Shown here: in pieces, positions 42,563-54,202 of the stretch | Position numbering within the stretch: position 1 is the stretch's first letter | Layout: the number at the start of each line of letters is the position of its first letter | Origin: an uncultured Saprospiraceae bacterium | Lineage (GTDB): Bacteria; Bacteroidota; Bacteroidia; Chitinophagales; Saprospiraceae | Direction: 5' to 3' | Length of the DNA stretch: 64,000 bases | NCBI GenBank assembly: GCA_937981555.1 | Contig: CALJOK010000024.1 | Coordinates: forward strand, 3,936-67,935 | Notes under the pieces: model-generated | Databases searched by the model: none | What the model was told of the DNA's origin: nothing | What the model saw: only the letters and a program-made list of their open reading frames with translations | Made by a program: the position numbers and the translations under genes

Positions 42563-43189
42563 ATTCCGTTCTTGACTTTTTAAGTCGTCATGGATCTTTT
42601 TCAACTCATTAATTCGACTTTCATACATAAAGAATATATATTTCTTCGAAACGAACCAAATTAATCCGAATAATACTGGAATTGAAATTCCAAGAGTTAA
42701 TAATATTACATCCCACCTTGTCAAAATCTCTAGATCATTCCCATTATCTGTGAAGTTTGCCAGTAATCCTAAAATAAAACTTATCGGTACAAATATCCAA
42801 ACAAGAAACTTTAATTTCTTTAAAGCTTTAGTTAAAATTTCATAATACCCCCCAATACTTTCCACCACATTTTGAGAAGAGATAGATTTGATTTCATGAA
42901 TAAATTTTCTAGTTGAAAAATAACTTGATACCACTAATAGTATCGAGCAAGAATACAAAATCCAGATGTAAGGATGGTCTCGCATAAAGTAAAAAATAGC
43001 AAACATCAGTATCACACCTGTTACTGTTTCATTAATTGCATTTCGTTTAATTTCTTGCAATAAATCATTTGATTTTTTGCGAGCCATTTCCAATACTTCA
43101 GGTTCAATTGATTGATAATAAACCTTAGCTTGATCATCTGAAACTTTCCAAATATTCTTTAAATCAAATTCTTCCATATCCTTGGTCAT
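42554..43189 (-). CDS. Membrane protein, candidate anti-sigma partner of the upstream ECF sigma factor
   Basis: 211 aa with 4 predicted TM segments. Its start overlaps the sigma-factor gene by 26 nt. Confidence 0.55.
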   Translation of the reverse strand: MTKDMEEFDLKNIWKVSDDQAKVYYQSIEPEVLEMARKKSNDLLQEIKRNAINETVTGVILMFAIFYFMRDHPYIWILYSCSILLVVSSYFSTRKFIHEIKSISSQNVVESIGGYYEILTKALKKLKFLVWIFVPISFILGLLANFTDNGNDLEILTRWDVILLTLGISIPVLFGLIWFVSKKYIFFMYESRINELKKIHDDLKSQERNLQ

Positions 43190-43685
43190 TTAATAGTTTG
43201 AATAATTGTTTTTTAATTCGAAGTAGTTTTACTCCCACGTGACTAGTGGTTAAACCTATGATTTCAGCAATCTCCTCATATTTTTTTTCATCCAAATGTA
43301 GCAGTATAATTGCCCGCTCATCTTTTCCTAATTGATTGATACATTTATATAGCAATTCTATTTTTTCTTCCTTTTGAAAAACCTGTTCCACTCCTACCCT
43401 ACCCTCATCTGGTATTTTAAAAGAAAAATTATCAATCGGATTAATGGCTTGATTTCGCTTTTGCTTTTTTTGAAAAGTCAAAGCTGTATTTAATACCACC
43501 CGATATATCCATGTTGATATTTTAGACTCTCCTCTAAAACGAGCATAGGATTTCCATAGCTGTATCAACATTTCTTGATATAAATCCTTAAAGTCTGCTT
43601 CCCCTAAAGTGTAAGAGCGAGCTATTTTGTACAAAATACCATTGTACTCATCGATAATATTTTTGAAATCCTTTTCCGTTGGCAT
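43164..43685 (-). CDS. ECF-type sigma-70 family RNA polymerase sigma factor
   Basis: 173 aa with region 2 (DLYQEMLIQLWKSYARF) and region 4 HTH (YEEIAEIIGLTTSHVGVKLLRIKKQL). Confidence 0.85.
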   Translation of the reverse strand: MPTEKDFKNIIDEYNGILYKIARSYTLGEADFKDLYQEMLIQLWKSYARFRGESKISTWIYRVVLNTALTFQKKQKRNQAINPIDNFSFKIPDEGRVGVEQVFQKEEKIELLYKCINQLGKDERAIILLHLDEKKYEEIAEIIGLTTSHVGVKLLRIKKQLFKLLNDQGYGRI

Positions 43686-43807
43686 ATTAGTTAGTATCCT
43701 TTGTCGGTAAATTATTACAACTGGTCGGTAATTAATCTTATTTTATTATTCAGCTGTAATAAAATGATTAAACCGAATACTAATGTAGTGAATCAAAAAA
43801 AAATATC

Positions 43808-44014
43808 ATGAAAAATTCAAACTCAAAGAAATTCACTCCTTTTACTTATTTAGCAATAGTATTCGGATTATTCCTTGCCTTTACAGATGATTACATCGTA
43901 GAGTATTTGAGCAATCGTCCAACTTTGGGGATTATTTTTGTTGTAGTCTTAATCATTGGTTTTATTTACTTCGTAGGAAGTAAAAAATTGAAACATGATT
44001 TTACTAGTAAGTAA
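43808..44014 (+). CDS. Small two-TM membrane protein (hypothetical)
   Basis: 68-aa ORF with two hydrophobic helices; no other support. Confidence 0.4.
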   Translation: MKNSNSKKFTPFTYLAIVFGLFLAFTDDYIVEYLSNRPTLGIIFVVVLIIGFIYFVGSKKLKHDFTSK

Positions 44015-44076
44015 AACAGCTTAACGTTTTAAAGAAACAGCAAAATGCATGAAATAAGCTTTATTATTCATGTATT

Positions 44077-45170
44077 TGCTGTAATTTTACAGCAGATATT
44101 ATATAACACCTTTCCAATAAAGACTCCCTTATCCTAATCAAACCATAACGTAGTGGTCCGATTTAGCTGACTTAAGATTTCATTCCTCTAAGGCTTACTC
44201 TCAACATGATTACAATTTTTAACAAAACTTAATGGTTAAAAACCAAATCACTACTTCCCATTAATTCTATTTCAAAATATTCAAAATCCATTTTTCTGAT
44301 TCCAATCATTCCCATCTCCCAAAACATATTTTTTTATCTATCACTCCTTAATCAAAGGATAAACTGTAATTAACACCTGCTGTATTAATTACAGTTTTTT
44401 ACAGAAAATTACAGCAATTTAATGCAACCACCTTTCCTTATTATCATGTCTTCTACTGAACCGATTTAACTCCTTAGTAACAAGGTGGTACCGAATCGAA
44501 AGAAGTAGTTTCATCAATAACTATAGAGAATATTCCAAAGAATATAATTTCACCACCTAGCACATATAAATAAAATACCAAATATTCTAGGTAGTGAAAT
44601 TTCTGTCGAGTTTATATTTCTACACTTAGGAGAAATATTTGCTGCATCAGCACCCAAGTCCAGCAATTGGAAAATTCTTTTAATTAACTAAACCAATACA
44701 AAAAGAGTCCATAGTTTCATAAAGCTTTAATATTACTGTATTAAATACAGTTTTTTACAGAAAATTACAGCATGTTTATTTTTAACTATATCCTTTTGAC
44801 TTGTAAACTATTATATATTCACGTTTTTAGAATACCTCTCCATAGATTAACCATCTCATCATAAAAGGAACAATTATAATTATTCCAATATCTCAAGTTT
44901 TAAATTGGCAAAAAATGCATTCTCTAAGTTTTAAAAGTTAAGATGGCTTAGTGCCTTCCTTAATTTACTCAGAGTAACTACAATTGAGTTATTTCTTCAT
45001 AAAAGACTAAGCAGAAATTCTATAGCTTAGAACTTGAGATCGAAATAGTATTTTCCAAAAAAATCTGGAAAAAGACTGATTCACCTATTTGCTGTAAAAA
45101 TTACAGATAAATACAGCAAATAATGGAATAAGACAATATTTATACAGATTTTTACAGCATTATACTGTAA
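44077..45170. repeat. Four clusters of TGCTGTA/TACAGCA inverted-repeat boxes upstream of parA (candidate centromere/operator sites)
   Basis: Clusters are at 44077-44094 (perfect palindrome TGCTGTAATTTTACAGCA), 44363-44416, 44735-44772 and 45088-45170. The 26-nt exact direct repeat ACAGTTTTTTACAGAAAATTACAGCA occurs at 44391-44416 and 44747-44772. Confidence 0.8.
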
Positions 45171-45239
45171 AATTGATTTTTAGTCTACTCATCTAGCTAT
45201 ATTCGCTTCATTCTTTCATTATTAAAAACCAATTACCCT

Positions 45240-45884
45240 ATGATTATTGCGGTTACCAACCTCAAAGGCGGTGTCGGAAAAACCACCATAGCTACCAACC
45301 TTGCAGTAAGTTTTGCGCACCGAGATTATGATGTTTGCATTGTCGATACCGATTTAGGACAACAATCCTCAATGGAATGGTCTGGAAATAGAAGTGAAGA
45401 TAGAATCAGGATTCCTGTTTTTGGCGTAAGTATCAAACAACTCAATAAAGAAGTGGAAGGATTACAAGAGAAATATGACATTGTCATTATTGATGGAACA
45501 CCCCAATTGTCTGAGTTGGCCGATAGAACTATTCTAGCGAGCGATTATTTAGTCATTCCATTGATGCCAAGTATTTATGATTTTAGAGGCTTTGAGAACT
45601 TCCTAGAAAGGTTTGAGCAAATCCGTGGATTGAAAGAAGCAAGTGGAGGACAAGTAAAAGCTTTGGTTGTGTTGAATCGAGTGGTTTCCAAAACTAATGT
45701 GAGTAAAGAAATTAAAGAAGCCGTAAAAGAATATGATGTTACGTTACTAAAAGGAACGATCAATAGTCGAGTCGCTTATGCAGATTCCGCAACTGACGGA
45801 CTTGGAGTAGTGGAATACAAAGACGCAAAAGCTAAAAAGGAAATCAATAAACTAACTGATGAACTTGAAAAAATATTAAGTTAG
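45240..45884 (+). CDS. parA: ParA-family partition ATPase (small, type Ib-like)
   Basis: 214 aa with deviant Walker A motif NLKGGVGKTT at the N-terminus and a DTD motif. Confidence 0.9.
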   Translation: MIIAVTNLKGGVGKTTIATNLAVSFAHRDYDVCIVDTDLGQQSSMEWSGNRSEDRIRIPVFGVSIKQLNKEVEGLQEKYDIVIIDGTPQLSELADRTILASDYLVIPLMPSIYDFRGFENFLERFEQIRGLKEASGGQVKALVVLNRVVSKTNVSKEIKEAVKEYDVTLLKGTINSRVAYADSATDGLGVVEYKDAKAKKEINKLTDELEKILS

Positions 45885-45885
45885 T

Positions 45886-45977
45886 TACTGTAAAAGATGT
45901 AATATTTCTGTAAAATGCTGTACTATTTACAGAAATATACTTATTTTACAGCGTAATGCTGTATTATTACAGCAAAT
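45886..45977. repeat. Box cluster in the parA / RHH-gene spacer
   Basis: ATATTTCTGTAAA (45902-45914) pairs with TTTACAGAAATAT (45926-45938). TACAGCGTAATGCTGTA lies at 45947-45963, with further CTGTA/TACAG boxes nearby. Confidence 0.8.
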
Positions 45978-46002
45978 TTATTCAAAGAAAATTTTCAATA
46001 TT

Positions 46003-46245
46003 ATGCCAATTAAAAAGAAAATCGCTTCAAAGAAGATTACCAAAGCAATGGATGCTGAAAGCCAAGAGAAAGCTTTAATTCAGCTACAAAAAAAAGATAA
46101 AAAGAAAAACGTGCAACGAGTAACCGTTGACTTCCCACAATATCTTTATGAAAAAATGAAGTTGGAAACTGAAGATACTGGTCAAACTTTAAAAGGATTT
46201 ATCGTTGGATTGGTAAGAGAACATTTTACTCGGAAGGAAGGGTAG
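46003..46245 (+). CDS. Ribbon-helix-helix protein, candidate ParG-like centromere-binding partner of ParA
   Basis: 80 aa with a basic disordered N-terminus followed by VTVDFPQYLYEKMKLE...LKGFIVGLVREHF (beta-strand plus two helices). It lies directly downstream of parA. Confidence 0.6.
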   Translation: MPIKKKIASKKITKAMDAESQEKALIQLQKKDKKKNVQRVTVDFPQYLYEKMKLETEDTGQTLKGFIVGLVREHFTRKEG

Positions 46246-46301
46246 TAGTTGGATTTAGAACGTAACTGGAATCTTTGAATCCCGGTATAGAATCAAACCT
46301 C

Positions 46302-46341
46302 AAAAGACCTTGCAGATTTTTATAGTTTGCAAGGTCTTTTT
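46302..46341 (+). terminator. Rho-independent terminator after the RHH gene
   Basis: AAAAGACCTTGCA (46302-46314) pairs with TGCAAGGTCTTTT (46328-46340), followed by T. Confidence 0.75.
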
Positions 46342-46590
46342 GCATGTTATGGAACTCCCTCTGTTTTTAATCAGTTTTTACAAACAAGCAACAATTCTAT
46401 TTTTCTATATAAAGCGATTTAAAGCAGTTTTCTTATCTCCAATTGAGATATTCCTCAATTCTTATGTTAATGCGCTAAAATCGCCTAAAAATCATTTTAA
46501 AAGTGCTTCCTATCTTCCTGCTTAGAGTACAATATTGATTTTTAATCTTATTCGAATCCTTAATCCAATTTAGATTGCCGATTATCAAAA

Positions 46591-47432
46591 ACAGCATATT
46601 GCTGTATAAATAATGCATATTGCTTGCTAATCTCTATATTTAAAGCATTATCACAGCAAAATACAGCAATATTAAAGAATCAGAATAAAGCTAAATATGA
46701 CACCAAATGGAATAGCAATACTACATTTCCAATTAGAATTGAAATGTAGACGCTTAAACTAAATCTAGAAATTACATCGATTGGGGAGATTTAAAGAAAA
46801 GAGTAAATGTTTAATTGGAACTATAATCTTATGAATAACCCTCTTTCTGAAAAATTAAAACAGAGGTCAAAAAACATTTTCCCTAAACTTAAAATCCTTC
46901 AAAACAGTTAGAATCAAAGCTCATCAAAAAACTACAGCAATTAACTTTAAATATGCTGTAGTTTGCTGTAAATTTCATTAAACCCAATTATCTAGAAAAT
47001 ATGCTCAAACAAAAATTGTTATTTCCCAACTGATGTCTTTACGTAACTTCTCCATGTTTAACTAAAAAATTATTTCTCCTAATTCATAAAAGATCTCAAA
47101 ACTCAACATTATATTTTAAATTCAAAAATACTGTTTTGCCTTTCTTAGAGAATTTAAAAGGAGAAAGGGAAAATCAATTAAACTTCAATACTTTGTAGCC
47201 AAAAAGCATATTGCTGTAATTATACAGTTTTTTACAGCAATATGCTTTATCTGGTATTCAAAGATCCATTGGCTAAAACTTAGCCAATCAAATTAAAAAT
47301 ATATTTTTTAAACACCTCGTCATTATTCGCCATCTATTTAATCGTTAATTTTCCAATATTTTGAGGAGAGGATAATTGGCAATACCCTCATTATTGCTGT
47401 ACTTTACTGTATTTTTACAGCAAAGTACAGCA
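46591..47432. repeat. Four further clusters of TGCTGTA/TACAGCA boxes downstream of the par genes
   Basis: Clusters are ACAGCATATTGCTGT at 46591-46605 with ACAGCAAAATACAGCAA at 46653-46669, then 46931-46972, then 47203-47219 / 47232-47248 (17-bp perfect arms AAAGCATATTGCTGTAA), then 47395-47405 / 47422-47432. Confidence 0.8.
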
Positions 47433-47859
47433 GTAGTGAGATTTAAGCTTTTAATTCCTTTTATTAAAAGGAATCTTGAGTTTTGGTTTTTAGTTAATTA
47501 AATTCGCGAAAATCAGCTGATTTTCTTTTAGAAAAAATAATCACAACCTTGATAACAGCTTTTTTAGGTAACTCTTTTAATTTTTTTAAAATGATTTTTA
47601 ATTTGACCAAGAGGAGCCAATCAATCTAAATCTCAAAAAAGCATTTTTAGCGTTTCAAGGATCACTAATATTTGTTGTAAAACTCTTGAGACATTAGTTC
47701 CTAAAAATCCTTTGAGTTCGTTTAAAATGTTTCACAAGAAGAAAATTCCAGCTAAGTTGAAAGTTTCTGAGAAGTAAAGATCATCTGTTTATACAGAAGG
47801 GTATTAAGAAAAAAAGAAAATTAAAAAGGTCTTAAATTACTATTTAAGACTTTTAAAGT

Positions 47860-47972
47860 TTTTTTAATTCTTTTAATATTATTTGTAGCGATTTAAAAAT
47901 TAATTTGAGATAGTTCTAGAACTTAATGATAGCAAGCGTTTCAGCAGATTATATTATATTTTTCTTTTTCTT
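47860..47972. other. AT-rich tract abutting the iterons (candidate DNA-unwinding element)
   Basis: About 110 nt of almost pure A/T immediately left of the first tightly phased iterons. Confidence 0.3.
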
Positions 47973-48805
47973 AAGAAGGGACAGATTTAGGGATATTAAG
48001 GGGACAGGTTTAGGGCTGAAAGAGGGACTTAATCAGTAAAAATGGGGGACAGACTTAGGGAGCTAAAAGGGACACAAAAGGGGGAATGAGCTGAAATGAT
48101 TATACAATCATTAAAAAGGGGACAAAAAAAGGGCAAATTAAATTAATCTGATTTGCAGTTTTTTGAAAATACCTTATACCCTTAATAAAGGGACATTATC
48201 AGGGAAATTGTATTTAGGTTTCTTTTTTTTATTGGTAAAAGTGGTTTTAAGAGGGGATAGAGAAATAATTAATATTAAAAAGGGGACAAAAAAGGGGGCC
48301 AACTATTACTTGGACCGATTTTAAAGAGAAGAAGTCTCTTTTTTTTTACTAAAAGGGGACAGAAAAGGGGAGTAATCAGTTGAAATCCATTTTTTTTTGT
48401 TTAAAAAGAATATGATTTGAATGATTTCGGGTATATTTTTTAAAAAGGGACAAAAAAAGGGCCCAAGTATTAGTTGAACATGTCAAAAGCTCTCAGAAGC
48501 GTAATTTATTAGATTAAAAGGGACATGAATAGGGATAAAGTATAAGTTTATGATCCATTTTTGAGTTGAATTGAGGTGATTTTTCTAAAAAGGACTAAAA
48601 CAGGGTAAGTGTAATCCTTTTTATGTCCCTTTTTATAATTACACTTTCCTTCTGCTAGTACAGTTACATGCGAGTAGATTAAATTTTGGATATTTAAGAG
48701 GGACATAATCAGGGGAATATTATAACACATATATATAGCATGATTTTTTAAAATATAAAAGATGTGGAAACATTTAGGGGGACAAAGCTTTTACTAGTCC
48801 CCTTC
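47973..48805 (+). repeat. Iteron array (about 15 direct copies of AAAGGGGACAnAnnnAGGG plus inverted half-sites), candidate oriV
   Basis: Copies start near 47973, 47997, 48019, 48040, 48065 (22-25 bp phasing), then 48111, 48184, 48247, 48274, 48349, 48440, 48513, 48584, 48692 and 48771. An inverted half-site lies at 48622-48635, and the inverted pair AGGGGAC...GTCCCCT lies at 48776-48803. Confidence 0.8.
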
Positions 48806-48811
48806 ATTTTT

Positions 48812-48819
48812 TATATTTG
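48812..48819 (+). promoter_or_regulatory. Candidate -7 promoter box TATATTTG for the rep gene
   Basis: Exact TAnnTTTG match, 47 nt upstream of the ATG at 48866 and just right of the inverted iteron pair. Confidence 0.4.
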
Positions 48820-48865
48820 CTTAAATTTTAATATTCACCACTATGTTTCAGCTTGATCAAAAACT

Positions 48866-50068
48866 ATGAAGCAGAAAAAAGTTAAACAAATAGCTCGTAT
48901 TGAAAATAGGTTTATTTTCAATGCAAGATACCAACTAAGTGCTCGGGAGCAAAAGATAATCTTATATCTAATGTCCAACCTAGACCCATTAGCACAAAAT
49001 GATTTTCATAAGCAGATAGTTTCGGTTAAAGAATTGGAGAACCTCCTCAAAGGGGAAGATAAGAAATGGGGTGGCTTGTACAAAGAGATGAATGATTTTA
49101 GCGCGCGAATTATTTCCAAATATATTTCTTTTGATTCTGATTTTTTGGTTGGAGGAAAACCATTACGTGGAGTCATCAGCTGGTTTCAATCGGTGATTCC
49201 TGTCGAAACTGAAAATGGGGAAGTGGCTTTAGAATTTATGTTTTCTGAAAGACTTAAACCTTTTTTATTGCAATTGAGTGAATATGCTAAAATTCACCCG
49301 TTGGATGTAGCTCCGATGAAAAGTGGTTTTGCGATTAGAATGTATCAAGTTTTTAAAGCGGAACGAGATCGGATGCGGAAACATACCCAAACCAATGCCA
49401 TGGTTTACACTTTGGATGAGTTGAAAAAAATGCTAGGCATCGAAGGAAAATATAAGGTGTTGAAAGATTTTAGGAGAAGAGTGCTCGATGTCGTGGAACG
49501 AGAAATAAATACTCATAGTCCAAGTGTTCAAGTTAAGTATGAATATATTAAAACTTCCCGTCGGGTAACAGGAGTGCGGTTTCTAATTTTTGATAAACCG
49601 AAGGATAAACCAAAAGCTACCAATGAAAAGAGTGGGGAGGCAACTAATTATGCTCCATCAAAAGAAGAGTTGGAAGTTTTGTCTTACTCTCAAACTAAAG
49701 CTTATAATATGTTGGTGAAATTTGGAGTATATGAAGGTATCGCTTACAAACAAATTGTGCCGGTAATTACGGGTGGCGAAATTGACGGATTCGAAGATTA
49801 TTTTGTCAAGCATGCTCTTTCGCATTTTAAGAAATGGGCAAGAGTTCAACCTAATAAAGCAATTAGTGCAGCAACATTTGTGAATTGGTGGACAGAGGGG
49901 AAAGTGTTCAATGCAGACAATGATGTGTTTTGGAAAATTCAGGAAAAGATCAATCACGATAAAAAGAAATTGGACGAAGCTACCTTTGACAATCGTATGG
50001 AAGCGAAGAATATGACGAAGAAAGAATTTATTGAATGGTACAAAGGGACACAGTCAAAAATGATGTAA
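48866..50068 (+). CDS. Plasmid replication initiator (Rep_3 / RepB-like, iteron-binding type)
   Basis: 400 aa. The N-terminus IENRFIFNARYQLSAREQKIILYLMS matches the conserved opening of Rep_3 initiators as I recall it. The gene lies directly downstream of the iteron array. Confidence 0.8.
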   Translation: MKQKKVKQIARIENRFIFNARYQLSAREQKIILYLMSNLDPLAQNDFHKQIVSVKELENLLKGEDKKWGGLYKEMNDFSARIISKYISFDSDFLVGGKPLRGVISWFQSVIPVETENGEVALEFMFSERLKPFLLQLSEYAKIHPLDVAPMKSGFAIRMYQVFKAERDRMRKHTQTNAMVYTLDELKKMLGIEGKYKVLKDFRRRVLDVVEREINTHSPSVQVKYEYIKTSRRVTGVRFLIFDKPKDKPKATNEKSGEATNYAPSKEELEVLSYSQTKAYNMLVKFGVYEGIAYKQIVPVITGGEIDGFEDYFVKHALSHFKKWARVQPNKAISAATFVNWWTEGKVFNADNDVFWKIQEKINHDKKKLDEATFDNRMEAKNMTKKEFIEWYKGTQSKMM

Positions 50069-50107
50069 CGACTGATTTTAGTCGGTAGGAAAAATCAAAT
50101 AAATTCT

Positions 50108-50165
50108 AAAGGCATCGAATCCGATGCCTTTAAAAAAGTTCAATTCCGTCGAACTCGACGGAATT
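50108..50165 (+). terminator. Two tandem GC-containing hairpins after rep
   Basis: AAAGGCATCG (50108-50117) pairs with CGATGCCTTT (50122-50131). AATTCCGTCGA (50142-50152) pairs with TCGACGGAATT (50155-50165). Confidence 0.5.
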
Positions 50166-50194
50166 AAAAAATTAAAGAAACACTATATTTTCAA

Positions 50195-51055
50195 ATGGCA
50201 AAACTCAAACCTTCCACCATAATTGTTCAAGGAAATGAAATTAGACTCACTTCCAAAAATGAAGAATCATATATTTCACTAACTGATATTGCAAAAGGTT
50301 TTGGAGATTCAAAAACGATGATTCAAAATTGGATGAGAACCAGAAGCACCGTTGAATTTTTAGGAGTTTGGGAAAATATGAACAATGATGATTTTAACCG
50401 CATCGAATTCGAGGCGATTAAGAATGCCTCCGGAAGTAATGTATTTTCCCTTTCTCCAAAAAAATGGATCGAAACAGTTAGTGCAGTTGGAATGACTTCC
50501 AAATCTGGAAGATATGGAGGAGGAACTTTTGCCCATTCTGAAATCGCATCTGAATTTGCTTCATGGTTAAGTCCATCTTTTAAATTATTTGTTTTTCAAG
50601 AATTAAATAGATTAAAAGAAGAGGAAGCTAAACGCAATAATTTAGAATGGAATGTTCATCGGATTATGTCGAAAGCCAATTTTCATATTCATACGGAAGC
50701 AGTCAAAAAGCATCTCGTTCCACCTCGGATTAAGAATACTAAAGCAGAAGGCATCGTTTATGCGAATGAAGCTGATATTTTAAATGTAGCATTATTTGGA
50801 ATGACTGCGAAGCAATGGAAAATTCAGAACCCAGAAATGACTGGAAATATGCGAGATAATGCCACGACGGAGCAATTACTTGTTTTGTCAAATTTGCAAA
50901 GCTTGAATTCCAAATTGATGGAGTGGGGGAGTGATGCGGAACAACGATTGGATATTTTAAATAAAACGGCGATTGACCAAATGGGAGTTTTGACAATGAG
51001 TGCATCTTTGAAGCAATTACCAAAAGAAAAGAAACAGCTAAAAAGTGGGAAGTAA
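50195..51055 (+). CDS. KilA-N domain-containing DNA-binding protein
   Basis: 286 aa. The N-terminal 130 aa (IRLTSKNEESYISLTDIAKGF...GTFAHSEIASEFASWLSPSFKLFV) fit the KilA-N pattern, and the C-terminal region is helical. Confidence 0.8.
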   Translation: MAKLKPSTIIVQGNEIRLTSKNEESYISLTDIAKGFGDSKTMIQNWMRTRSTVEFLGVWENMNNDDFNRIEFEAIKNASGSNVFSLSPKKWIETVSAVGMTSKSGRYGGGTFAHSEIASEFASWLSPSFKLFVFQELNRLKEEEAKRNNLEWNVHRIMSKANFHIHTEAVKKHLVPPRIKNTKAEGIVYANEADILNVALFGMTAKQWKIQNPEMTGNMRDNATTEQLLVLSNLQSLNSKLMEWGSDAEQRLDILNKTAIDQMGVLTMSASLKQLPKEKKQLKSGK

Positions 51056-51056
51056 A

Positions 51057-51491
51057 ATGATCAAACTTTCAAAGGAACAAGTCAATAGTATTGGGCAAGA
51101 TTTGGAGATGGGGATGAAATGTTATGTTCACAAAACTACAGGCGTGGCTACAAGCGTACCAAATGATATAAGTGAACATGATGATAATTTTGAAGTATGG
51201 GAAGAGGAACTAAAAGAGGTGAAACAAAACCCAGGTCAATATATTCTAATAGATCAAATGCAAAGTTCTGATTCCTTTAGAATTATGCGAAGATTTTTGG
51301 GAAAAGTTTCCAATTCTAAAATACGAGAAAAATTAATGATCGCCATTTCTCAAAATAAACCATTTCGAAAATTTCGAGATATTTTGGATTACAATGGTGA
51401 CGTTTTGCAAGATTGGTATGACTTCAAGCAAGAGCAAATAGAACGCTATGTTAATAGCTGTTTAGATGGTAATTCTGAAGAAGAAGAGTGA
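51057..51491 (+). CDS. UPF0158 family protein
   Basis: The ATG at 51057 lies 1 nt after the KilA-N stop. SDSFRIMRRFL...KPFRKFRDILDYNGDVLQDWYDFKQEQIERYV resembles the UPF0158 core. The ORF-track GTG start at 51045 is less likely. Confidence 0.7.
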   Translation: MIKLSKEQVNSIGQDLEMGMKCYVHKTTGVATSVPNDISEHDDNFEVWEEELKEVKQNPGQYILIDQMQSSDSFRIMRRFLGKVSNSKIREKLMIAISQNKPFRKFRDILDYNGDVLQDWYDFKQEQIERYVNSCLDGNSEEEE

Positions 51492-51495
51492 AAAG

Positions 51496-51531
51496 AAAGT
51501 TCCAAGATTCATTGAGTCTTGGAACTTTTTT
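51496..51531 (+). terminator. Rho-independent terminator after the KilA-N/UPF0158 pair
   Basis: AAAGTTCCAAGA (51496-51507) pairs with TCTTGGAACTTT (51517-51528), followed by TTT. Confidence 0.75.
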
Positions 51532-51670
51532 CATTTAAAGATAGTTCTTTTGCCATCACTAACCATTTCAATAAAAAGACAATGTAATTTTCATTTTACT
51601 TCATTTTGAAAAATCGTCGCTACCCTCTAGCGACTTATCTTTTTATTTATAGGAATTAAATTTATTAAAA

Positions 51671-52357
51671 ATGGATTCACGAAAGTACGGTCGTACTTTC
51701 CATTATCCTTTTTCGCCAGGAACGACAAGTGACGATAGAATTAATCATGACTATTGGTCAGATTTGCAATCTATTGAACAAATTGTCCACACCGAGAAAT
51801 TGGATGGAGAAAATACGTGCCTCAATCAATATGGCGTTTTTGCCAGATCCCATGCTGCCCCAACTCGGCACCCTTGGGCCAATTATTTAAAAGAACGATG
51901 GCATTTGATCAAAAATGAATTAGGTGATCTGGAGATTTTTGGAGAAAATATCTATGCTATTCATTCTATAAAATATTTGGAAATCGAACACCACTTTTAC
52001 GTTTTTGCAATCAGGCATTTGGATAAATGGCTTTCTTGGGAAGAAGTAAAATTCTATGCAGCATTGCTAGATTTTCCAATTGTCCCTGAGTTAAAAATGC
52101 AAAAGCCAAACGATCAGAAATTTTTGGAGAAAACAATTTTAAATTTTGTAAATCAACCGAGCGTTTTTCAATCTTTGGATATTCATACTCGAGAAGAATG
52201 TACGATGGAAGGAATCGTTTCTAGAAACGTTAATGAATATTTAGTAAAAGATTTTAAGAAAAATGTTTTCAAATATGTCCGAAAAGATCATGTTAAAACT
52301 GATGCACATTGGACTCGAAATTGGAAACGCGCTCCGTTAAAATGGGAAATATCATGA
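51671..52357 (+). CDS. ATP-dependent RNA ligase family protein (nucleotidyltransferase domain only, Rnl2/PF09414-like)
   Basis: 228 aa with covalent nucleotidyltransferase motifs I EKLDGEN, III EIFGEN, IV MEGIVSR and V FKYVRKDH. Confidence 0.8.
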   Translation: MDSRKYGRTFHYPFSPGTTSDDRINHDYWSDLQSIEQIVHTEKLDGENTCLNQYGVFARSHAAPTRHPWANYLKERWHLIKNELGDLEIFGENIYAIHSIKYLEIEHHFYVFAIRHLDKWLSWEEVKFYAALLDFPIVPELKMQKPNDQKFLEKTILNFVNQPSVFQSLDIHTREECTMEGIVSRNVNEYLVKDFKKNVFKYVRKDHVKTDAHWTRNWKRAPLKWEIS

Positions 52358-53475
52358 GTAATAAAATTTGGAAAATAATAGAAAACAAAGAGTGGCAAAA
52401 TGTAAGGAATTCATTTTCATGGATTCGGGATATGGAAGAAGTGCCACAAGATAAAGTGCATCACGCCGAAGGTGATGTTGCTACTCATACTCGTATGGTG
52501 GTAGAAGCATTGTTGAATTTACCAGCATTCCAAGGTTTGGAAGAGCAAGAAAAAGAGATTCTTTTTGCCGCTGCACTTTTGCATGATGTTGAAAAACGAT
52601 CAACCACGGTTCATGAATCTGATGGAAGAATCACTTCACGAGGACATGCTCGGAAAGGAGAATTTACTGCTCGAACGATTTTGTACAAAGATATTTCGAC
52701 TCCATTTCTGATTCGAGAAGCGGTGGCAAAATTGGTTCGAAATCATGGTTTACCGATTTGGATTTTTGAAAAGGAAAACCCGAGGAAGACACTTTTGCAA
52801 ACTAGTTTGGAAGTGAATTTAATGCACTTAGCTATTTTAGCAAAAGCCGATATGTTGGGAAGAATTTGTCAGGATCAATCAGAAATGTTGTATCAAATTC
52901 AATTATTCGAAGAATTTTGCAAGGAGCAAGACTGCTTTGGAAAAATGAAAATCTTTGGTTCTGATTTAGGACGATATCAATTTTTCCAAAAAGAAGAAGC
53001 AAGCCCTGACTATGTCCCTTTTGAAAATAATACTTTCGAAGTGATCATGCTGTCAGCTTTGCCAGGAACAGGGAAGGATTTTTTTATCAAAAAAAATTAT
53101 CCAAATGTTTCTGTTGTTTCTTTAGATGCTATTAGAAGGGAAAATAAAATTAGTCCAACCGATAAAAAGGGCAATGGAAAAGTCATTCAAATGGCAAAAG
53201 AACAAGCAAGAGTTTTTTTAAGAAAAAAAGAATCCTTCATTTGGAATGCAACGAATATTACAAGAAATCTGCGAACACCGTTGATTGATCTTTTTCAAAG
53301 TTATGGAGCAAAAACGAAGTTAATTTACCTCGAAGTTTCTTATAAAAAATTGATCCAGCAAAATAGAAATCGAGATTTTCCAGTCCCTCAAAAAGTAGTG
53401 GAAAAGATGATTTCGAAAATAGAAATTCCATCAAAATGGGAAGCTCCAATTTTAGAAATACATGTTTCAGACTAG
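52354..53475 (+). CDS. HD-Pnk-type bifunctional end-healing enzyme (N-terminal HD phosphoesterase plus C-terminal P-loop polynucleotide kinase)
   Basis: HD motifs are HHAEGDVATHT and AALLHDVEK. The Walker A motif LPGTGKD lies in the C-terminal third. The ATG at 52354 overlaps the ligase stop codon (ATGA). The ORF track offers upstream in-frame starts at 52309 and 52342. Confidence 0.8.
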   Translation: MSNKIWKIIENKEWQNVRNSFSWIRDMEEVPQDKVHHAEGDVATHTRMVVEALLNLPAFQGLEEQEKEILFAAALLHDVEKRSTTVHESDGRITSRGHARKGEFTARTILYKDISTPFLIREAVAKLVRNHGLPIWIFEKENPRKTLLQTSLEVNLMHLAILAKADMLGRICQDQSEMLYQIQLFEEFCKEQDCFGKMKIFGSDLGRYQFFQKEEASPDYVPFENNTFEVIMLSALPGTGKDFFIKKNYPNVSVVSLDAIRRENKISPTDKKGNGKVIQMAKEQARVFLRKKESFIWNATNITRNLRTPLIDLFQSYGAKTKLIYLEVSYKKLIQQNRNRDFPVPQKVVEKMISKIEIPSKWEAPILEIHVSD

Positions 53476-53571
53476 AAAACATGAGATTTTTCATAATTCG
53501 AACTCAAGTCAACACTTTTCCATGTTATGCCTAATTCGAACTAAAAAGCAGGGGCTGCTAAAAACATAAAT

Positions 53572-54066
53572 TTAAAAACTAGATCCAAAACCCAGATAAA
53601 TTATTTCAGGAAAACCAATTCCTGCTCGAAAGAGGAAACCTCCTGATGGTTTTTGATATCGGTAACCAATCGTAATAGCAGGAAGGATTTGAAGATAGTC
53701 TGACCTGGGAGGTTTCGAATTAGCATTACTTACGCCTATGTCATAACTTTGTTTATCATAGAGTAAGGTCAATCCTCCATTGAATTCCAAATGACTATTC
53801 TTTTGACCTGTTAACGCAGTTATTGAGGTGACAAATTGAGCACCTCCTCCCGCCCAGCCAGACCAAATGCCCAATCCGTTTCGCCAATAAAATGTGAATT
53901 TTTCATTTTTTGTTTCGCCCACCCATCGTTCATAACTAACGTTGGCTGCTAAACCTAATGTAGCATAAATAGTATTTTTTTTAAAATTTGGACTGTTTTC
54001 TTGAGCAAAGGAAAGTTGACTGATGGTAATAAATATTAGAATTAGATTGAATTTAAATGTTTGCAT
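53572..54066 (-). CDS. Small outer-membrane beta-barrel-like protein
   Basis: 164 aa with a signal peptide ending in SFAQ, a glycine/aromatic-rich strand pattern and a C-terminal Phe. Confidence 0.6.
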   Translation of the reverse strand: MQTFKFNLILIFITISQLSFAQENSPNFKKNTIYATLGLAANVSYERWVGETKNEKFTFYWRNGLGIWSGWAGGGAQFVTSITALTGQKNSHLEFNGGLTLLYDKQSYDIGVSNANSKPPRSDYLQILPAITIGYRYQKPSGGFLFRAGIGFPEIIYLGFGSSF

Positions 54067-54202
54067 TGGTTAGAGGTTTTAATGAAGTTACTCGTCAATG
54101 TAAAGAAATTTCCTGAATACATTTATTTTAAGCTTTTTTAGTGGAGAAATATCGTCAAATTTCTCTATTCATATTGCTTAATTGAATATTCGATATCCCC
54201 GC

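What the first reader, a model, noticed from the sequence alone, without database searches (positions are those of the whole stretch)
43700..53571. Complete replication/partition backbone with no integrase, embedded among housekeeping-like genes
Seen: the par genes, box field, iterons, rep and four accessory genes occupy about 9.8 kb. About 4 kb of that (44015-45239 and 46246-48865) lacks credible ORFs, which is exceptional for an otherwise tightly packed window. I saw no integrase, transposase, relaxase, tRNA or obvious flanking direct repeats. The only small repeat at the right edge is TAATTCGAACT, twice, at 53504 and 53532. The neighbours are ordinary metabolic and regulatory genes (ECF sigma pair on the left, 2-oxoacid dehydrogenase E1 with Lrp on the right). 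By eye, composition does not change at the borders. Inference: either this window comes from a large plasmid or chromid whose own origin this is, or a plasmid backbone has been captured in the chromosome by a route that left no recombinase. Either case changes how every other gene in the window should be read, for example the catabolic cluster and the giant adhesin as plasmid-borne cargo.
Basis: inference. Interest (0 to 1): 0.65.

Follow-up and report, generated by a model that had tools for sequence, protein, structure and literature searches.

The report
Origin of a Saprospiraceae single-copy megaplasmid
This stretch is the replication origin and partition system of a circular, roughly single-copy secondary replicon (122 kb in a sister species, about 225 kb here) that a genus of uncultured marine Saprospiraceae appears to inherit vertically, so the window's genes are plasmid cargo; the element is an ordinary kind, apart from an unusually spread-out centromere-like repeat field.

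Summary
Window 43.7-53.5 kb carries:
- a ParF-like ParA;
- an 80-aa probable ribbon-helix-helix partner;
- nine clusters of TACAG(CA) boxes spread over 3.4 kb;
- 12 direct iterons;
- a Rep_3 initiator, a KilA-N gene and three variable accessory genes.

About 3.8 kb is non-coding. The window has no integrase, transposase, relaxase or tRNA.

- In a sister species the orthologous module lies on a 122,383-bp contig that closes into a circle. It has a 54-bp terminal overlap, and the joined ends align colinearly with G000 contig C72.
- All six contig junctions of the G000 counterpart follow that circle's gene order. They give about 225 kb, broken only at IS copies.
- dnaA is on another contig.
- Depth is about 0.85-1.0 of chromosomal depth, and the tetranucleotide signature is chromosomal.
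- Rep and a cargo gene diverge across the genus in step with DnaA. DNA identity to the sister species is 81.8% on the replicon and 81.0% on the chromosome.
- The sister circle has no mobility genes. Its cargo is glycan and acyl-CoA catabolism and secreted proteins.

No rRNA, tRNA or essential gene was found, so 'chromid' is not proven. I rate it a new member of a known kind, of modest interest.

The parts
44079..45169 (.). Left box field: four clusters of TACAG(CA)/(TG)CTGTA boxes at 44079-44092, 44364-44414, 44736-44770 and 45092-45169. The last one lies directly upstream of parA. Three of them are spaced exactly 356 bp apart.
   Evidence: The same cluster architecture occurs in three sister species although the spacers do not align. 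Box-to-box spacing is 10 bp in 52 of 97 adjacent pairs and 9 bp in 14.
45240..45884 (+). parA: a small (214 aa) ParF-type Walker ATPase with deviant Walker A KGGVGKT and no N-terminal DNA-binding domain.
   Evidence: Pfam AAA_31, CbiA and ParA. The best solved relative is TP228 ParF (4dzz, full length, E 5e-22).
45888..45972 (.). Seven-box cluster in the 118-bp gap between parA and parB.
   Evidence: It is conserved at the same place in L018, L019 and L020.
46003..46245 (+). parB-like gene: an 80-aa protein with a lysine-rich tail and a probable ribbon-helix-helix core (RVTVDFP...GQTLKGFIVGLVREHF). It is the presumed box-binding centromere protein.
   Evidence: No Pfam or PDB sequence hit. Only 28 metagenomic homologues were found, with an invariant core. 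The AF2 model has pLDDT 73, with a coil and then two helices. Foldseek top hits are mostly RHH proteins (MatP, HicB, Arc, CdbA, CopG, AtaR), but all have E above 0.4. The C-terminal motif is shared with the partners of ParA on C103 and C87.
46305..46342 (+). Hairpin plus T-run after parB; a likely terminator.
   Evidence: Read from the sequence. A Logan contig of run X13, whose library type is unknown, ends at 46347.
46602..47430 (.). Right box field: clusters at 46602-46666 (weak), 46933-46970, 47214-47237 and 47397-47430.
47800..47970 (.). AT-rich stretch (84% A+T at 47800-47899) just upstream of the first iteron; a candidate DNA-unwinding element.
   Evidence: The function is inferred only.
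47979..48714 (+). Iteron array: 12 direct bipartite repeats, AAAGGGGAC(A/T)-N5-6-AGGG. Four are tightly packed; the rest are 71-109 bp apart, with a 164-bp higher-order unit repeated three times. One inverted copy lies at 48616-48638.
   Evidence: Offsets from the rep start are conserved to within a few bp in 6 closer species. The GGGAC and GGG cores are conserved in all 7, while the 5-6 nt between them vary.
48778..48819 (+). Inverted half-iterons GGGGAC (48778-48783) and GTCCCC (48797-48802), followed by TATATTTG (48812-48819). This looks like a Rep operator over a Bacteroidota-type -7 promoter element, 47 bp before the rep ATG.
   Evidence: Read from the sequence. The promoter consensus TAnnTTTG comes from my own knowledge and was not tested.
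48866..50068 (+). rep: a Rep_3 family initiator (WH1 plus WH2, 400 aa).
   Evidence: Pfam Rep3_N 3.1e-20 and Rep3_C 1.9e-19, both over the cut-off. Orthologues are 96-99% identical in five sister species and 82% in two more. No PLSDB plasmid exceeds about 26% identity.
50104..50168 (.). Two adjacent strong hairpins after rep.
50195..51055 (+). KilA-N domain gene. It is a conserved neighbour of rep in this plasmid family.
   Evidence: Pfam KilA-N 1.2e-19. It is present next to rep in all sampled relatives with enough sequence downstream of rep (L016-L019, L021, L022). Homologues at 32-40% identity sit next to rep on C103 and C87.
51045..53475 (+). Variable accessory genes: UPF0158 (51045-51491), RNA ligase (51671-52357) and HD plus AAA_33 kinase-like (52309-53475).
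   Evidence: Pfam. They are present in G001, G003 and G009 and absent from G007 and G008, so they are cargo rather than backbone.

Best explanation
The region is the native origin and partition module of a separate, circular, roughly single-copy secondary replicon of a Saprospiraceae MAG. That replicon is about 225 kb here and 122 kb in a sister species.

Inferred mechanism, replication:
- Rep_3 monomers bind the 12 direct bipartite iterons. Each iteron has GGGAC and GGG half-sites about one helical turn apart.
- They melt the adjacent AT-rich stretch and start theta replication.
- Rep dimers on the inverted half-iterons over the rep promoter repress rep.

Inferred mechanism, partition:
- A type Ib system segregates the copies.
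- The 80-aa probable ribbon-helix-helix protein binds TACAG(CA) boxes phased every 10 bp. The boxes form nine clusters upstream of, between and downstream of parA and parB.
- The ParF-like ATPase moves the resulting complex over the nucleoid.

Shown here: gene families, repeat statistics, conservation, circularity in the sister species, copy number, composition and co-divergence. Inferred: all binding and biochemical steps.
For: Separate replicon:
- G007:C13 has a 54-bp terminal overlap.
- Its joined ends give one colinear 2,961-bp alignment with G000:C72 36795-39745.
- 61 of its 65 ORFs have their best hit, at 48-97% amino-acid identity, on G000 contigs C72, C38, C24, C85, C82 or C78, in circular order.
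- dnaA is on C26.
- The branching graph edges (C58 and C38 to C24; C22 and C78 to C72) run through an IS91-like and an IS4-like copy.

Copy number. In run X1 the Logan contig depths are 19 (window) and 21.4 (C72), against 22.5 (dnaA contig) and 20.5 (C17). X2 and X3 give similar ratios.

Composition. The tetranucleotide distances of C24, C72 and C78 to the genome mean fall at the 48th-65th percentile of chromosomal contigs.

Vertical descent:
- Rep identity is 99, 99, 97, 97, 96, 82 and 82%, and E1 dehydrogenase identity is 97 to 84%.
- Both broadly follow DnaA at 99 to 90%, with the same split into a close clade and a distant clade.
- Nucleotide identity to G007 is 81.8% on the replicon and 81.0% around dnaA.

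Origin. Rep3_N and Rep3_C hits, 12 iterons and conserved iteron positions.

Partition:
- The ParA is ParF-like.
- The small protein has an RHH-like motif and model.
- The boxes are locus-specific and 10-bp phased.
- The sister replicon C103 has the same layout with a different box, ACTGCAA, and a divergent ParB.
Against: - G000 itself is not closed. All six junctions fall in repeated IS copies, so an IS-mediated cointegrate with the chromosome cannot be excluded.
- The depth equals chromosomal depth, which fits integration just as well.
- GC skew on the G007 circle has its minimum about 25 kb from the iterons.
- No DnaA box was found near the iterons.
- The RHH assignment rests on non-significant Foldseek scores.
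- No binding has been shown.
- All the genomes are MAGs.
Confidence: 0.85

Rival explanations
1. In G000 the plasmid is integrated into the chromosome, for example as an IS-mediated cointegrate. The module would then be a resident, possibly silent, backbone.
For: Every replicon contig ends in an IS copy that is also found at chromosomal contig ends. Depth equals chromosomal depth. Composition is chromosomal.
Against: The gene order across all six junctions matches the closed circle of G007 and the 108-kb contig of G001. No unique-sequence link to the chromosome exists. Rep, the iteron positions and the par genes are intact and strongly conserved across species, which implies they are in use.
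Confidence: 0.08
2. The contig is a plasmid of another organism that was wrongly binned into this MAG.
For: All the genomes are MAGs, and plasmids are often mis-binned.
Against: - The orthologous rep is binned into 7 further independent MAGs of the same genus.
- Rep and E1 identities follow DnaA identities.
- Depth matches the chromosome in three samples with different abundances.
- The tetranucleotide signature is typical of the genome.
Confidence: 0.03
3. The TACAG(CA) box field is not a centromere. It could be an operator or silencing array, a set of incompatibility or handcuffing sites, or sites for another protein such as KilA-N. The spacers could be decayed genes or could encode small RNAs.
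For: No binding data exist. Nine clusters over 3.4 kb is far more spread out than known type Ib centromeres. The cluster upstream of parA could simply be the autoregulatory operator.
Against: The clusters surround parA and parB specifically. They are unique to this locus in the genome and phased at 10 bp, as expected for cooperative RHH binding. On C103 a different box co-occurs with a different ParB in the same layout. The spacers are not conserved and hit no Rfam family.
Confidence: 0.2

Closest known systems
Rep_3 iteron plasmids (Pfam PF01051/PF21205; Acinetobacter RepM/Rep_3 plasmids were the best PLSDB hits, and pPS10, F RepE and R6K pi are related winged-helix initiators)
   Same: A WH1-WH2 initiator, direct iterons immediately upstream of rep, inverted half-iterons at the rep promoter and an adjacent AT-rich stretch.
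   Different: At most about 26% identity to any PLSDB plasmid Rep. The Rep is 400 aa, with about 160 extra C-terminal residues. The 12 iterons are spread over 740 bp, mostly 71-109 bp apart, with a 164-bp super-repeat, rather than abutting units of about 22 bp. No DnaA box was found. The host is a Saprospiraceae (Bacteroidota).
Type Ib partition systems: TP228 ParF/ParG-parH, pB171 par2 (ParA/ParB with parC1 and parC2), pSM19035 delta/omega
   Same: A small ParA without a DNA-binding domain (best PDB hit ParF). A small partner with a flexible basic tail and an RHH-like core. Short repeated boxes in direct and inverted orientation. As in pB171 par2, sites lie on both sides of the operon (own knowledge).
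   Different: Nine separate clusters over 3.4 kb, with non-conserved spacers of 190-800 bp. One cluster lies between parA and parB. The partner has no detectable sequence similarity to ParG or omega.
Chromids and domesticated megaplasmids (sense of Harrison et al. 2010; own knowledge)
   Same: A plasmid-type replicator, chromosome-like composition, about one copy per chromosome, presence across the genus, co-divergence with the chromosome and no conjugation genes.
   Different: No rRNA, tRNA or demonstrably essential gene. The size varies about two-fold between species, and only about 79% of the G007 circle aligns to G000, against 94% around dnaA.

Membership tests
Rep_3 iteron-type theta replicon | Initiator with Rep3_N (WH1) and Rep3_C (WH2) domains | tested here: met
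   73.5 and 70.1 bits against cut-offs of 22.4 and 21.1.
Rep_3 iteron-type theta replicon | Array of direct iterons next to rep | tested here: met
   12 direct copies at 47979-48714. Positions and cores are conserved in 7 species.
Rep_3 iteron-type theta replicon | Inverted half-iteron operator at the rep promoter | tested here: met
   GGGGAC and GTCCCC at 48778-48802, 64-88 bp before the ATG. Repression was not tested.
Rep_3 iteron-type theta replicon | AT-rich unwinding element and DnaA box | tested here: inconclusive
   An 84% A+T stretch lies at 47800-47899. No TTWTNCACA box occurs in 43-50 kb.
Rep_3 iteron-type theta replicon | Autonomous replication of the cloned origin plus rep | not testable with these tools
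   Needs a bench test.
Type Ib (ParF/ParG-like) partition system | Small Walker ATPase with a deviant Walker A and no N-terminal HTH | tested here: met
   214 aa, KGGVGKT. A full-length match to TP228 ParF at E 5e-22.
Type Ib (ParF/ParG-like) partition system | Ribbon-helix-helix centromere-binding partner | tested here: inconclusive
   The motif and the AF2 model fit, and the top Foldseek hits are mostly RHH proteins, but all have E above 0.4. There is no sequence hit to ParG.
Type Ib (ParF/ParG-like) partition system | Repeated centromere boxes adjoining the operon | tested here: met
   Nine clusters, about 10-fold enrichment, 10-bp phasing and uniqueness to this locus. Binding was not tested.
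Chromid | Plasmid-type replication system | tested here: met
   Rep_3 plus ParA; dnaA lies elsewhere.
Chromid | Nucleotide composition close to that of the chromosome | tested here: met
   The tetranucleotide distance falls within the chromosomal range. GC is 0.342 against about 0.34.
Chromid | Carries core or essential genes | tested here: inconclusive
   The replicon contigs carry no tRNA, and no essential gene was recognised. Several genes, including SelO, have their only genomic copy on the replicon. SelO is present in 9 of 10 genus members.
Conjugative or mobilisable plasmid | Relaxase, coupling protein or type IV secretion genes | tested here: not met
   None among the 65 ORFs of at least 100 aa on the closed G007 circle or in the window. 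The parts specific to G000 were not all annotated.
Integrated element (ICE, prophage or genomic island) | Integrase and flanking att-like direct repeats, or an empty site in relatives | tested here: not met
   The window has no integrase and no bounding repeat. No relative has an empty site.

The most novel reading that the evidence does not exclude
An uncultured marine Saprospiraceae genus keeps a domesticated, non-mobilisable, unit-copy secondary replicon, that is, an incipient chromid in Bacteroidota, where multipartite genomes are rarely described. That replicon and at least three co-resident sister replicons would share a backbone: ParF-like ParA, RHH partner, spread iterons, Rep_3 and KilA-N. 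The centromere would be a kilobase-scale field of helically phased box clusters, and its box sequence would differ between replicons and so set partition compatibility.
Probability: 0.45. Interest if true: 0.55.

Novelty: new member of a known kind. Interest (0 to 1): 0.36.

Why it matters
- It changes how the window is read. The acyl-CoA catabolic cluster, the 2,388-aa SprB-repeat/reprolysin protein and the orphan E1 dehydrogenase lie on a secondary replicon, not on the chromosome. On the rest of that replicon are SusC/SusD pairs, sulfatases, GH20 enzymes and proteins secreted by the type IX system.
- It shows that MAG bins of this genus hold a vertically inherited megaplasmid that varies about two-fold in size. 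This matters for pangenome and ecological interpretation, since glycan degradation would be a replicon-borne trait.
- For plasmid biology it offers a natural series of related, co-resident type Ib partition systems with dispersed centromere fields and different box sequences. That is a convenient system for studying partition specificity and incompatibility.

Tried and rejected
- GC skew as an origin marker. On the closed G007 circle the cumulative minimum is at 24.6 kb and the maximum at 96.7 kb. There is only a local minimum near the iterons at about 49 kb, so the skew follows gene orientation.
- Circularising C24 itself. It has no terminal overlap.
- Treating contig-end overlaps as adjacency. 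The C58-C24 and C22-C72 edges pass through IS91-like and IS4-like copies and were discarded as evidence.
- Rfam on the non-coding fields. Only sub-threshold miRNA-model hits on the palindromic boxes turned up.
- PDB sequence search with the 80-aa protein. Only spurious lysine-rich histone H2B hits at E about 0.06 turned up.
- PLSDB search for a known relative. Nothing exceeded about 26% identity.
- Sigma-70 promoter scan. It found fewer sites than in shuffled sequence, and the model does not apply to Bacteroidota.
- Search for RNA runs. It returned only two runs of unknown library type. X13 covers the genes but not 46.7-48.7 kb, at a depth too low to interpret.
- Depth as a discriminator between a separate and an integrated replicon. 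Replicon and chromosome depths overlap, at 19-21.4 against 20.5-22.5.
- Literature search for Saprospiraceae plasmids or chromids. None of the 15 papers listed concerned Saprospiraceae.

Full report
**Source.** The window is G000:C24:3936-67935. G000 is a 7.25-Mb draft of 117 contigs with 34% GC. The record titles of its closest relatives show it to be a Saprospiraceae MAG. The runs that hold the sequence are marine and biofilm metagenomes.

**Observation: genes.** Pfam gives:
- ParA at 45240-45884;
- no family for the 80-aa ORF at 46003-46245;
- Rep3_N plus Rep3_C at 48866-50068;
- KilA-N at 50195-51055;
- UPF0158 at 51045-51491;
- RNA ligase at 51671-52357;
- HD plus AAA_33 at 52309-53475.

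**Observation: non-coding stretches and boxes.**
- The stretches 44015-45239 and 46246-48865 contain only three short, unconserved ORFs and no Rfam family.
- TACAG/CTGTA pentamers are about ten-fold enriched in 44015-47450, and all 11 TACAGCA heptamers of the + strand lie there.
- The boxes form nine clusters of 2-7 boxes each.
- Across the whole 7.25-Mb genome, 7 of 9 such clusters are at this locus.
- Pooling four species, adjacent boxes are 10 bp apart in 52 of 97 pairs and 9 bp apart in 14. They therefore lie on one face of the helix.

**Observation: iterons.**
- Twelve direct bipartite iterons, GGAC(A/T)-N5-7-GGG, occupy 47979-48714.
- They show a 164-bp higher-order repeat (family D4).
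- An inverted pair, GGGGAC and GTCCCC, sits at 48778-48802, just before a TATATTTG element and the rep ATG.

**Observation: what is absent.** The window has no tRNA. None of its roughly 50 ORFs is an integrase, transposase or relaxase. Both copies fall inside a 0.67-kb stretch that is specific to G000 and carries a 164-aa ORF. They do not bound the module.

**Own origin or captured backbone: the sister circle.**
- dnaA is on C26.
- The Rep orthologue is 96-99% identical in five sister species and 82% identical in two more.
- In G007 it lies on a 122,437-bp contig whose two ends share 54 bp.
- When the ends are joined, the junction aligns as one colinear 2,961-bp match with G000:C72 36795-39745.
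- That contig is therefore a closed circle of 122,383 bp.
- 61 of its 65 ORFs of at least 100 aa have their best G000 hit on C72, C38, C24, C85, C82 or C78, at 48-97% identity.
- The order around the circle is C72 - C38(-) - C24 - C85(-) - C82 - C78 - C72.
- The 108-kb contig G001:C19 shows the same order.

**Own origin or captured backbone: the G000 assembly graph.**
- The contig-end overlaps are compatible with every one of these six junctions.
- The competing edges are explained by repeats. The C58-C24 and C38-C58 links pass through an IS91-like element, a recombinase-like ORF plus a transposase-like ORF at C58:39476-41553.
- The C22-C72 link is a second copy of an IS4-like element.
- C82 and C78 end in a repeat of about 15 copies.
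- The G000 replicon is therefore about 224 kb of unique sequence plus IS copies. It is not formally closed.

**Copy number, composition and descent.**
- In run X1, exact-match Logan contigs have depth 19 (window) and 21.4 (C72), against 22.5 (dnaA contig) and 20.5 (C17). X2 and X3 give similar ratios. This means about one copy per chromosome.
- The tetranucleotide signatures of C24, C72 and C78 fall in the middle of the chromosomal distribution.
- Across the genus, Rep identity (99, 99, 97, 97, 96, 82, 82%) and E1 dehydrogenase identity (97 to 84%) broadly follow DnaA identity (99 to 90%). All three show the same split into two clades.
- Against G007, nucleotide identity is 81.8% on the replicon, with 79% of it alignable. 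Around dnaA it is 81.0%, with 94% alignable.
- The replicon has therefore diverged together with the chromosome, but with more gene turnover.
- No relative shows the flanks joined without the module.
- G002 lacks Rep and E1 but does have SelO. There SelO lies next to sequence like that of C103.

**Cargo.**
- The G007 circle and the window encode SusC/SusD, sulfatases, GH20 enzymes, a BNR sialidase-like protein and many proteins secreted by the type IX system.
- They also encode a hybrid sensor kinase, an acyl-CoA, thiolase and SDR cluster, SelO and others.
- There is no relaxase, type IV secretion gene, integrase or transposase.
- No tRNA lies on the replicon contigs.
- Many of these genes have no paralogue elsewhere in G000.
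- This fits a domesticated, non-mobilisable megaplasmid. Chromid status is unproven because no core gene was identified.

**Mechanism (inferred).**
- Replication. The iteron offsets from the rep start are conserved to within a few bp in the six closer species. The GGGAC and GGG cores are conserved in all seven, while the bases between the cores vary. This is the footprint expected for a WH1-WH2 initiator that contacts two successive major grooves.
- Partition ATPase. The ParA is ParF-like (4dzz, E 5e-22).
- Partition partner. The 80-aa partner has only 28 metagenomic homologues, with an invariant core QRVTVDFP...GQT.KGF..GLVR. Its AF2 model (pLDDT 73) shows a basic tail, a helix, a coil over the putative strand and two helices. 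The top Foldseek hits are mostly RHH proteins, though none is significant.
- Sister replicons. G000 has three further Rep_3 contigs, C103, C87 and C97. C103 and C87 carry ParA, a small basic protein with the same C-terminal motif, a 1.5-2.1-kb non-coding gap, Rep and KilA-N; C97 has the ParA and Rep genes.
- Box specificity. On C103 a different box, ACTGCAA, occurs in pairs upstream of, between and downstream of parA and parB over 3 kb. A different partner goes with a different box in the same layout. This is the best available evidence that the boxes are the partner's binding sites.

**Comparison and novelty.**
- The closest families are Rep_3 iteron plasmids and type Ib partition systems (TP228 ParFG, pB171 par2, pSM19035 delta/omega). 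The defining features that could be tested were mostly met.
- The unusual points are the spread of the iterons, the kilobase-scale multi-cluster box field including a cluster between parA and parB, the conserved KilA-N neighbour and the host lineage. No PLSDB plasmid Rep exceeds about 26% identity, and all 120 listed relatives come from metagenomes or MAGs.
- I rate this a new member of a known kind, with modest interest.

Noticed in passing
G000:C103:33881-40062, C87:416-5064, C97:1154-3286 (outside the window): Three further Rep_3 replicon backbones sit in the same MAG. C103 and C87 have the same gene set: a ParF-like ParA, a small RHH-like protein, a long non-coding gap, Rep and KilA-N; C97 has ParA and Rep. 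Each has its own enriched motif: ACTGCAA pairs around parAB on C103, AAGCGTA on C87 and ATGAGTA on C97.
   Followed up: partly
G000:C12 (outside the window): One contig carries 25 of the genome's 50 tRNA genes. It was not checked whether they form one array.
   Followed up: no
window 53476-54146: A 0.67-kb stretch holds a 164-aa ORF with no Pfam hit (53572-54066, minus strand) and the duplicated 11-mer TAATTCGAACT. It is absent from all sampled relatives that cover this junction, which have at most about 110 bp there.
   Followed up: partly
window 51045-53475: The UPF0158, RNA ligase and HD plus AAA_33 genes are present in G001, G003 and G009 but missing from G007 and G008. They are variable cargo next to the conserved rep and KilA-N pair.
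   Followed up: partly
G000:C58:39474-41739, C24 ends, C72 start, C78 start, C82 end (outside the window): The replicon is broken at IS copies: an IS91-like element, an IS4-like element, a roughly 1.4-kb element present twice, and a repeat of about 15 copies. It is about twice the size of the IS-free 122-kb circle of G007.
   Followed up: partly
G007:C13:88393-89766 versus G000:C74:86874-88244; G002:C448: There is gene traffic between replicons. A saccharopine dehydrogenase gene lies on the G007 circle but on a large, apparently chromosomal contig in G000. In G002, SelO lies next to sequence like that of C103.
   Followed up: partly
window 44378, 44734, 45090: Three left-hand box clusters are exactly 356 bp apart. 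G007 has clusters 350 and 357 bp apart, although the intervening sequence does not align.
   Followed up: no
window 43000-51500, run X13: In a run of unknown library type, contigs cover the sigma factor gene, parA, parB (ending at the hairpin, 46347), rep and KilA-N, plus a short stretch of the left box field (44096-44307), but nothing in 44.7-45.3 or 46.7-48.7 kb. This may reflect transcription, but the depth is too low to say.
   Followed up: partly
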